From assembly GCF_013122565.1 (NCBI RefSeq), contig NZ_CP053258.1: DNA of 64,000 bases; one strand, given 5' to 3'. A program made the translations under genes and the position numbers. Positions 8,516 through 8,701 of the stretch are shown piece by piece. Numbering within the stretch: position 1 is the stretch's first letter; every line of letters begins with the position of its first letter. This DNA comes from Escherichia coli (GTDB lineage: Bacteria; Pseudomonadota; Gammaproteobacteria; Enterobacterales; Enterobacteriaceae). Under the pieces are notes generated by a model. It had not been told where the DNA came from. It saw only the letters and a program-made list of their open reading frames with translations, and made no database searches.

Positions 8516-8649
8516 CTTAGATATCCTTATAAAAGACGATATTTCATTATCGGTAAATTGGCTTTGCGGGAAATCTCCGTTTACGGACTGGAAGATTTTA
8601 TCTATTTAAAAACAATGAATTAAAAAATTAAGCAGCTTATTTAATTTTC

Positions 8650-8665
8650 TGGCACGACGGTTGCA
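8650..8665 (+). promoter_or_regulatory. sigma-54 (-24/-12) promoter of rtcBA: TGGCAC-GACGG-TTGCA
   Basis: Exact match to the TGGCAC-N5-TTGCA consensus, about 37 bp upstream of the rtcB ATG. Confidence 0.8.
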
Positions 8666-8701
8666 ATTACCAGGACATACCAACGAAAAGAGAAAAACAA
8701 A

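What the first reader, a model, noticed from the sequence alone, without database searches (positions are those of the whole stretch)
8516..8701. Canonical sigma-54 promoter for the rtcBA RNA-repair operon, divergent from its activator gene rtcR
TGGCAC-N5-TTGCA at 8650-8665 is a perfect -24/-12 element positioned correctly upstream of rtcB, with the sigma-54 activator rtcR divergently encoded. This is consistent with the known RtcR-dependent regulation of rtcBA and provides a useful internal check that the annotation is correct.
Basis: partly seen in the sequence, partly recalled or inferred. Interest (0 to 1): 0.25.

Follow-up and report, generated by a model that had tools for sequence, protein, structure and literature searches.

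The report
Known sigma-54 promoter of rtcBA operon
This is the already well-studied sigma-54 "-24/-12" promoter that switches on the RNA-repair genes rtcB and rtcA under control of the neighbouring activator RtcR; it is real, conserved and ordinary.

Summary
TGGCACGACGGTTGCA lies at 8650-8665 (+), the only exact TGGCAC-N5-TTGCA match in the window. It sits in the 186-bp gap between rtcR (6917-8515, -) and rtcB (8702-9928, +), with rtcA following. The 17-mer CTGGCACGACGGTTGCA is identical to the E. coli K-12 rtcB site bound by sigma-54 in ChIP-seq and listed as experimentally confirmed in EcoCyc. The predicted start is C8676, 26 nt before the rtcB ATG. That fits the ApC (-1/+1) plus ATP priming used on the native K-12 promoter.

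The motif alone is weak evidence at window scale: 18% of random 64-kb sequences reach its PWM score. Context and conservation decide it. In loci found through RtcR alone, 17 of 18 carry a strong sigma-54 motif 127-197 nt from the rtcR start, pointing away from rtcR. The background rate is 1 hit in 222,000 positions.

I add two inferred parts. One is an IHF-like site at 8610-8622. The other is a candidate RtcR enhancer palindrome, CGATATTTCATTATCG, at 8537-8552; a 2016 review lists the RtcR enhancer sequence as not known.

The parts
8649..8665 (+). Sigma-54 -24/-12 promoter element CTGGCACGACGGTTGCA (GG at 8651-8652, GC at 8663-8664)
   Evidence: Exact and unique in the window. Top PWM hit at 17.2 bits. 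Identical to K-12 ChIP-seq site OS35. Core invariant across 9 enterobacterial sequences. Equivalent motif present in 17 of 18 RtcR-anchored loci.
8676..8676 (+). Predicted transcription start (C), with the C of the -12 GC at position -12
   Evidence: It lies at motif centre 8657 + 19, the rule used in PMC4591121. A8675-C8676-A8677 fits the ApC (-1/+1) primer plus ATP used on the native PrtcBA in PMC9650030. Inferred by orthology; not mapped in this strain.
8676..8701 (+). 26-nt rtcB leader with a weak purine-rich Shine-Dalgarno-like stretch (AAAGAGA, 8687-8693)
   Evidence: Read from the sequence. It is 2 nt shorter than in K-12, where the leader is 28 nt. The block AACG(A/G)AA is conserved across genera.
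8610..8622 (+). IHF-like site AAACAATGAATTA (one mismatch to WATCAANNNNTTR), about -66 to -54 from the start site
   Evidence: A same-strand match sits at the same offset (-40 to -42 from TGGCA). It is perfect in Pseudomonas (3 species), Iodobacter and Accumulibacter. 6 loci have a perfect consensus against 0.43 expected. An 'rtc IHF binding site' is mentioned in PMC9650030. Inferred.
8537..8552 (.). Candidate RtcR enhancer (UAS): palindrome CGATA-N6-TATCG, centred about -131 from the start site and 22-37 nt upstream of the rtcR ATG
   Evidence: Unique in the window, with 0.03 expected. It is at the same place in every enterobacterial genus sampled. GATA..TATC dyads occur in 7 of 14 non-redundant RtcR loci against 0.5 expected, often with 10-bp phasing. 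It lies inside the 175-nt RtcR-responsive reporter fragment of PMC5175333. Inferred only; two E. coli strains carry a substitution in the left half-site.
6917..8515 (-). rtcR, a sigma-54 enhancer-binding activator (CARF-like N-domain, AAA+ with GAFTGA, C-terminal DNA-binding region)
   Evidence: NF038308 at 849.6 bits; PF06956 and PF00158; GAFTGA and Walker A motifs in the translation.
8702..9928 (+). rtcB, RNA ligase, first gene of the operon
   Evidence: PF01139 at 443 bits. Annotated rtcB in more than 4,800 E. coli genomes at this position.
9929..10960 (+). rtcA, RNA 3'-terminal phosphate cyclase. The start is either ATG 9929 or ATG 9932; it abuts the rtcB stop codon.
   Evidence: NF003247 at 777 bits. 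Sequence ...GGATAAATGATGAAA.... The K-12 annotation starts 3 nt after the rtcB stop.

Best explanation
The element at 8649-8665 is the sigma-54 promoter of the rtcB-rtcA RNA-repair operon. It is the ortholog of E. coli K-12 rtcBp and Salmonella rsrp.

The proposed mechanism is as follows. RNA polymerase carrying sigma-54 binds the GG (-24) and GC (-12) elements and remains as a closed complex. RtcR is made from the divergent gene and binds an enhancer about 130 bp upstream; my candidate is the palindrome at 8537-8552. An IHF-induced bend, proposed at 8610-8622, brings RtcR to the polymerase. When the CARF-like domain of RtcR is relieved by its signal, the AAA+ domain hydrolyses ATP and its GAFTGA loop remodels sigma-54. 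In Salmonella the signal is tRNA fragments ending in 2',3'-cyclic phosphate. Transcription then starts at about C8676, giving a 26-nt leader followed by rtcB and rtcA.

Shown here: the motif, its position, the gene identities, and cross-lineage conservation of the architecture. Taken from the literature on orthologs: sigma-54 binding, RtcR and sigma-54 dependence, and the start site. Inferred: the exact UAS, the IHF site, and activity in this particular strain.
For: - Exact motif, unique in the window, and the top PWM hit.
- The flanking genes are rtcR, rtcB and rtcA, and RtcR has GAFTGA and Walker A motifs.
- The 17-mer is identical to K-12 ChIP-seq site OS35, marked 'confirmed' in EcoCyc.
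- The Salmonella ortholog TGGCACGCTGGTTGCAAT binds sigma-54, and its promoter fusion is sigma-54-dependent.
- The RtcR-dependent reporter used 175 nt upstream of rtcB.
- ApC/ATP priming at -1/+1 fits C8676.
- The core is invariant in 9 enterobacterial sequences while the surrounding spacer is barely alignable between genera.
- 17 of 18 loci retrieved through RtcR protein alone have a 12.9-18.9-bit sigma-54 motif 127-197 nt from the rtcR ATG, pointing away from rtcR. Elsewhere in those loci there is 1 such hit in 222,032 positions.
- The motif is kept even where the first downstream gene is rsr (Ro60) plus YrlA RNAs instead of rtcB.
- IHF consensus at a fixed offset.
- Conserved palindrome.
Against: - Nothing was measured in this strain.
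- The PWM score alone is reached by 18% of random 64-kb sequences.
- The native K-12 promoter is reported as very weak in vitro.
- The primary TSS-mapping paper (Genschik et al. 1998) could not be read. The start site therefore rests on spacing rules and on an indirect statement about primers.
- The IHF site here has one mismatch.
- The palindrome's left half-site is mutated in two E. coli strains, and it overlaps the region where rtcR's own expression signals must lie.
- One distant RtcR-like locus, L019 at 43% identity, has no such motif.
Confidence: 0.95

Rival explanations
1. The motif binds sigma-54 holoenzyme, but rtcBA is mainly transcribed from another (sigma-70-type) promoter in the intergenic region. 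The sigma-54 site would then be inert or modulatory.
For: Many sigma-54 binding sites in E. coli are not known to be productive promoters (PMC4591121). RtcB is not completely abolished without rtcR. The native promoter is weak in vitro.
Against: No sigma-70-like promoter was found at 8300-8900 on either strand. The orthologous promoters are RtcR- and sigma-54-dependent in vivo. The motif keeps its position next to rtcR across distant lineages.
Confidence: 0.03
2. The motif is a chance match with no function.
For: On PWM score alone, 37 of 200 random 64-kb sequences contain an equal or better hit. 6 of 100 shuffles contain the exact pattern somewhere.
Against: It has the right strand and distance, in a 186-nt target, beside a dedicated sigma-54 activator. 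The expectation there is about 1e-4. It is identical to a ChIP-verified ortholog. The core is invariant while the flanks diverge. An equivalent motif is present in 17 of 18 RtcR loci.
Confidence: 0.01
3. This is a rival for the sub-claim about the enhancer only. Under it, the conserved block at 8520-8552, including the palindrome, is not the RtcR binding site. It would instead be rtcR's own promoter, leader or ribosome-binding signals, or the operator of another regulator, and the true RtcR enhancer would lie elsewhere, for example at 8553-8590.
For: The block lies 22-37 nt from the rtcR ATG. TATCC is the complement of the GGA-containing Shine-Dalgarno region of rtcR. Two E. coli strains have a substitution in the left half-site. 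No published RtcR footprint was found.
Against: Besides the sigma-54 core, it is the only block conserved between genera whose RtcR proteins are 81-84% identical. Dyad symmetry and 10-bp phasing of GATA/TATC recur in Pseudomonas, Accumulibacter and Desulfobacterota loci. A position of -131 is typical for an enhancer. The region 8553-8590 is conserved only within Escherichia.
Confidence: 0.4

Closest known systems
E. coli K-12 rtcBp (rtcBA promoter; Genschik, Drabikowski and Filipowicz 1998; ChIP-seq site OS35 of Bonocora et al. 2015)
   Same: The 17-nt element CTGGCACGACGGTTGCA is identical. The divergent rtcR, the spacing from the rtcR ATG (137 nt), the IHF-like site and the palindrome are also the same.
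   Different: The leader is 2 nt shorter (26 against 28 nt), and there is a T-to-C change at -6. Several substitutions lie between the palindrome and the IHF-like site, for example K-12 AGATATAATCT against AGATTTTATCT here. Overall the locus is only about 96% identical to K-12.
Salmonella Typhimurium rsrp (promoter of rsr-yrlBA-rtcBA)
   Same: It has the same core, TGGCACGCTGGTTGCAAT, differing only in two spacer bases. It is RtcR- and sigma-54-dependent, with a divergent rtcR.
   Different: In Salmonella the promoter is followed by rsr (Ro60) and Y-RNA-like genes before rtcBA; I saw the same in Intestinirhabdus and Superficieibacter. Here rtcB follows directly.
Generic enhancer-dependent sigma-54 promoters with IHF-assisted looping (for example nifH, pspA, glnHp2)
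   Same: A -24/-12 core, an activator site more than 100 bp upstream, an IHF-like site in between, and an AAA+ activator with GAFTGA.
   Different: The activator is controlled by a CARF-like RNA-sensing domain rather than by phosphorylation or a small metabolite (PMC7790460). The enhancer sequence is not defined in the literature I could search.

Membership tests
Sigma-54 (-24/-12) promoter | GG and GC dinucleotides exactly 10 bp apart within TGGCAC-N5-TTGCW | tested here: met
   TGGCACGACGGTTGCA at 8650-8665. 17.2 bits on a PWM of 41 verified sites, above their median.
Sigma-54 (-24/-12) promoter | Located upstream of a gene, in its orientation, at a short leader distance | tested here: met
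   The predicted start at 8676 is 26 nt before the rtcB ATG at 8702. Verified intergenic sites have distances mostly between 18 and 100 nt.
Sigma-54 (-24/-12) promoter | Physical binding of sigma-54 holoenzyme and a start site about 12 nt downstream of the GC | not testable with these tools
   Shown only for the identical K-12 ortholog (ChIP-seq OS35, flagged confirmed in EcoCyc) and implied by ApC/ATP priming. The Genschik 1998 primer-extension paper is not held in the library.
Sigma-54 (-24/-12) promoter | rpoN present in the genome | not tested
   rpoN is not expected within this 64-kb window. The organism is an Escherichia at 96-98% identity to E. coli, and rpoN is universal in that group (established knowledge).
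RtcR-activated RNA-repair operon (rtcR divergent from rtcBA) | [quoted passage not shown] | tested here: met
   NF038308 at 849.6 bits against a cutoff of 650. PF06956 covers residues 2-185 and PF00158 covers 187-354. GAFTGA and GPTGAGKS are present.
RtcR-activated RNA-repair operon (rtcR divergent from rtcBA) | rtcB and rtcA co-oriented and abutting downstream of the promoter | tested here: met
   rtcB at 8702-9928 and rtcA at 9929/9932-10960, with stop and start adjacent.
RtcR-activated RNA-repair operon (rtcR divergent from rtcBA) | Sigma-54 motif conserved at a fixed distance from rtcR across RtcR-encoding genomes | tested here: met
   17 of 18 loci, at 127-197 nt from the rtcR ATG on the divergent strand. 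Background is 1 hit in 222,032 positions.
RtcR-activated RNA-repair operon (rtcR divergent from rtcBA) | Defined RtcR enhancer (UAS) upstream of the promoter | tested here: inconclusive
   The candidate palindrome at 8537-8552 is conserved across enteric genera, and GATA/TATC dyads are enriched. There is no binding data, the literature lists the sequence as not known, and variants exist within E. coli.
IHF-assisted sigma-54 promoter | IHF consensus WATCAANNNNTTR between the enhancer and the -24 element | tested here: inconclusive
   AAACAATGAATTA at 8610-8622 has one mismatch. Perfect sites sit at the same offset in five other loci (Pseudomonas x3, Iodobacter, Accumulibacter), and a sixth perfect site (Superficieibacter) lies at -30; 6 perfect against 0.43 expected. 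An rtc IHF site is mentioned, but not given in sequence, in PMC9650030.

The most novel reading that the evidence does not exclude
The conserved, helically phased GATA/TATC dyads next to the rtcR start codon are the so-far undefined RtcR enhancer. Here that is the palindrome CGATATTTCATTATCG at 8537-8552; Pseudomonas, Accumulibacter and Iodobacter have TATC-N6-GATA plus a second dyad. Because the enhancer would then lie over rtcR's own leader or promoter region, RtcR bound there would both activate rtcBA from about -131 and autoregulate rtcR. That would explain why the distance from the rtcR ATG to the -24 element is held at about 130-160 bp across phyla.
Probability: 0.45. Interest if true: 0.3.

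Novelty: already known. Interest (0 to 1): 0.08.

Why it matters
It confirms the strand, the gene calls and the identity of the rtcR-rtcBA locus in this Escherichia genome. The Rtc system matters for survival of tRNA and ribosome damage and for tolerance to ribosome-targeting antibiotics (PMC5175333, PMC12606134). The promoter itself, however, has been known since 1998. The only small added value here is a comparative map of the control region: a conserved spacing, an IHF-like site and a candidate RtcR enhancer palindrome. That map gives a directly testable target for the still-undefined RtcR DNA site.

Tried and rejected
- **Sigma-70 and terminator scan of 8300-8900.** It found no sigma-70-like promoter on either strand, so it neither supports an alternative rtcBA promoter nor locates rtcRp. 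By eye, a weak candidate for rtcR on the - strand is TTAATT (8623-8618), a 17-nt spacer, then TAAAAT (8600-8595). It is poorly conserved in K-12, so I do not claim it.
- **Genschik et al. 1998 (PMID 9738023).** I tried to read it for the primer-extension start site, but it is not held.
- **Supplements of PMC9650030.** I searched for the UAS, IHF and hybrid-promoter sequences and found only plasmid names.
- **Literature searches for an RtcR footprint or UAS sequence.** None was found. A 2016 review lists it as 'NK'.
- **PWM scan as stand-alone evidence.** Rejected as insufficient at window scale, since 37 of 200 random sequences match the score.
- **Other PWM hits in the window.** These include 3030-3046 at 14.8 bits and 62651-62667 at 14.4 bits. 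None of the window genes I searched for (glpD, yzgL, glpE, glpR, malT) appears in the K-12 ChIP-seq tables, so I treated these hits as background.
- **Generic repeat finder on 8480-8720.** It gave only short AT-rich pairs and missed the 5+5 palindrome.
- **Strain LB858871 (H40).** Its partial match turned out to be an IS1-mediated rearrangement of rtcB and is not informative about the promoter.
- **Rfam scan of the window.** It found nothing in the intergenic region.

Full report
**Observation.** The stretch 8516-8701 is exactly the intergenic gap between a 532-aa ORF on the minus strand (6917-8515) and a 408-aa ORF on the plus strand (8702-9928). TGGCACGACGGTTGCA lies at 8650-8665 on the plus strand. 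It is the only exact TGGCAC-N5-TTGCA match in the window; shuffles expect 0.07 matches, and 6 of 100 shuffles give at least one. Scaled to the 171 positions on the correct strand of this gap, the chance expectation is about 1e-4 (my arithmetic).

**Gene identities.** The minus-strand ORF is RtcR. It matches NCBIfam NF038308 at 849.6 bits against a cutoff of 650. Pfam places an RtcR/CARF-type domain at residues 2-185 and a Sigma54_activat domain at 187-354. Walker A (GPTGAGKS) and the sigma-54 contact loop GAFTGA are present. The plus-strand ORFs are RtcB (PF01139) and RtcA (NF003247, 777 bits), with the rtcA start abutting the rtcB stop. The neighbours are glpG and glpR on one side and malT on the other, as in E. 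coli. The locus is 96-97% identical to E. coli genomes. A control region (envZ-ompR-greB) peaks at 98.3%. The source is therefore an Escherichia slightly outside the bulk of sequenced E. coli.

I built a 17-nt PWM from the 41 other intergenic sigma-54 sites verified by ChIP-seq in E. coli K-12 (Bonocora et al. 2015, PMC4591121), leaving the rtcB site out. The site at 8649-8665 scores 17.2 bits. That is the best score in the window and above the median of true sites (15.9). However, 37 of 200 random 64-kb sequences reach this score somewhere. The motif alone is therefore weak evidence at window scale, and the case rests on context.

**Match to the known promoter.** The 17-mer CTGGCACGACGGTTGCA is identical to K-12 site OS35, assigned to rtcB. 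That site is bound by sigma-54 in vivo, with a fold-above-threshold score of 17, and is flagged as an experimentally confirmed promoter in EcoCyc. The Salmonella ortholog TGGCACGCTGGTTGCAAT also binds sigma-54, and its promoter fusion is sigma-54-dependent (PMC3844500). RtcR-dependent activation of a reporter carrying 175 nt upstream of rtcB has been shown in E. coli (PMC5175333).

From my own memory of its abstract, Genschik et al. 1998 mapped the rtcBA mRNA start downstream of these TGGCA and TTGCA elements. I could not read that paper here.

**Start site.** Using the rule in PMC4591121 (start = motif centre + 19), the start is C8676, 26 nt before the ATG. K-12 has 28 nt; the window has a 2-bp deletion in the leader. 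PMC9650030 primed the native PrtcBA with ApC spanning -1/+1 and then added ATP. A8675-C8676-A8677 fits this, with the C of the GC element at -12. The same paper notes that the native promoter is very weak in vitro, so a consensus core does not make it strong.

**Conservation, tested without circularity.** I retrieved loci from one genome per species using the RtcR protein only.

- In 17 of 18 RtcR-encoding loci, the best PWM hit in the 900 nt upstream of rtcR lies 127-197 nt from the rtcR ATG on the divergent strand, at 12.9-18.9 bits.
- These loci span Escherichia, Klebsiella, Intestinirhabdus, Superficieibacter, Iodobacter, Accumulibacter, three Pseudomonas species, a Calditrichia MAG and four Desulfobacterota.
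- Outside that zone the same loci contain 1 hit of at least 12.9 bits in 222,032 positions.
- The four Escherichia loci are not independent of one another, but about 12 separate lineages remain.
- The exception is L019, an RtcR-like protein of 43% identity.
- In an alignment of nine enterobacterial sequences, CTGGCACG..GGTTGCAA is invariant except in the spacer, while the surrounding AT-rich DNA is hardly alignable between genera.
- The promoter is retained whether the first downstream gene is rtcB (Escherichia, Klebsiella) or rsr/Ro60 plus YrlA Y-RNA-like genes (Intestinirhabdus and Superficieibacter, as in Salmonella).

**Rest of the control region (inferred).**

- *IHF-like site.* AAACAATGAATTA at 8610-8622 matches WATCAANNNNTTR with one mismatch. 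It sits 40 nt upstream of TGGCA. Perfect consensus sites lie at -41 or -42 in Pseudomonas (3 species), Iodobacter and Accumulibacter, and at -30 in Superficieibacter. That is 6 perfect sites against 0.43 expected. PMC9650030 refers to an rtc IHF site without giving its sequence.
- *Candidate enhancer.* Besides the sigma-54 core, the only block conserved between enteric genera is next to the rtcR start. It contains the palindrome CGATATTTCATTATCG at 8537-8552. The palindrome is unique in the window, with 0.03 expected, and sits at the same place in Klebsiella, Intestinirhabdus, Superficieibacter and all the Escherichia species sampled. GATA..TATC dyads occur in 7 of 14 non-redundant loci against 0.5 expected, often at 10-bp start-to-start spacing. 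The palindrome is centred at about -131 and lies within the 175-nt RtcR-responsive fragment. I propose it as the RtcR enhancer.
- *Status in the literature.* A 2016 review lists the enhancer sequence as not known, and my searches found no later definition.
- *Caveats.* The block overlaps rtcR's ribosome-binding and leader region. Two E. coli strains (LHM10-1 and CFT073) have a substitution in the left half-site. There are no binding data.

**Mechanism.** Sigma-54 holoenzyme forms a closed complex at 8649-8665. RtcR binds about 130 bp upstream and is brought to the polymerase by an IHF bend. It is activated when its CARF-like domain is relieved; in Salmonella the signal is tRNA fragments with 2',3'-cyclic phosphate ends (PMC7790460), with input from RtcA and RtcB (PMC9650030). 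RtcR then hydrolyses ATP to open the promoter, and rtcB-rtcA mRNA starts at about 8676. The motif, context and conservation are shown here. Sigma-54 binding, dependence on RtcR and sigma-54, and the start site come from orthologs. The UAS and IHF positions are inferred.

**Rivals.** A chance match is excluded by position and conservation. An alternative sigma-70 promoter for rtcBA has no support: no sigma-70-like site was found on either strand. For the enhancer sub-claim, the alternative that the conserved block serves rtcR's own expression remains open, at about 0.4.

**Verdict.** This is the long-known rtcBA sigma-54 promoter, so novelty is 'already known' and interest is low. Its practical value is as an annotation check. 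The modest extra is a testable candidate for the RtcR enhancer.

Noticed in passing
window 11010-11764 (- strand), between rtcA and malT: There is an insertion of about 830 bp that is absent from K-12, where rtcA and malT are 42 bp apart. It carries a TacA-like antitoxin (92 aa, PF08681, E = 2.5e-19) overlapping a GNAT acetyltransferase (161 aa). This is a TacAT-type toxin-antitoxin pair, convergent with rtcA. It is present in 394 of 5,426 complete E. coli genomes. A tRNA-targeting toxin family beside an RNA-repair operon recalls dinJ-yafQ downstream of rtcBA in Salmonella.
   Followed up: partly
window 162-3050 (+ strand), next to glpD (3264-4784, -): Four consecutive ORFs (235, 262, 258 and 127 aa) have no NCBIfam, Pfam or PADLOC family. 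The DNA is found at 80% coverage or more in only 1 of 5,426 complete E. coli genomes, at 93% identity, where it is annotated as hypothetical or membrane proteins. It looks like a rare variable island of unknown function.
   Followed up: partly
window 3137-3179 (+): Rfam match to the ES036 (CssrF) sRNA at 39.4 bits against a gathering score of 37.6, just downstream of the unknown four-ORF island. A sigma-54-like 17-mer (14.8 bits) lies about 90 nt upstream at 3030-3046. None of the nearby genes I searched for appears in the K-12 ChIP-seq tables.
   Followed up: no
whole window: No complete E. coli genome exceeds about 96.5% identity over rtcR-rtcBA, or 98.3% over envZ-ompR-greB. The RtcB protein is 99.3% identical to that of Escherichia sp. 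E1V33. The source is probably a divergent or cryptic Escherichia lineage, or the locus is mosaic.
   Followed up: partly
window 8592-8606 compared with L001 (K-12) 3625-3640: Between the palindrome and the IHF-like site, K-12 reads AGATATAATCT, a perfect TATAAT on the rtcB strand. The window reads AGATTTTATCT. The leader also differs by a 2-bp indel and a T-to-C change at -6. The functional consequences are unknown.
   Followed up: no
L008 (Klebsiella oxytoca), about 2180-2365 on the - strand: rtcB starts about 186 nt after the start of the sigma-54 motif. The leader opens with an ATG followed by codons resembling the N-terminus of rsr in Intestinirhabdus and Superficieibacter. This may be a remnant of a deleted rsr-yrlA module, which suggests the Escherichia and Klebsiella arrangement arose by loss of rsr and the Y RNAs.
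   Followed up: partly
L019 (uncultured Desulfovibrio, RtcR-like protein at 43% identity): This is the only RtcR-like locus without a sigma-54 motif within 900 nt upstream (best score 3.2 bits), and no rtcB lies upstream. It may be a different regulator family or a different gene arrangement.
   Followed up: no
L026 (E. coli LB858871): rtcB is split and inverted between two IS1A copies, with rtcR and the region upstream of the -24 GG missing at that junction. It is an example of natural inactivation of the locus. About 570 of 5,426 E. coli genomes lack a match to the rtcR-rtcB intergenic region.
   Followed up: partly
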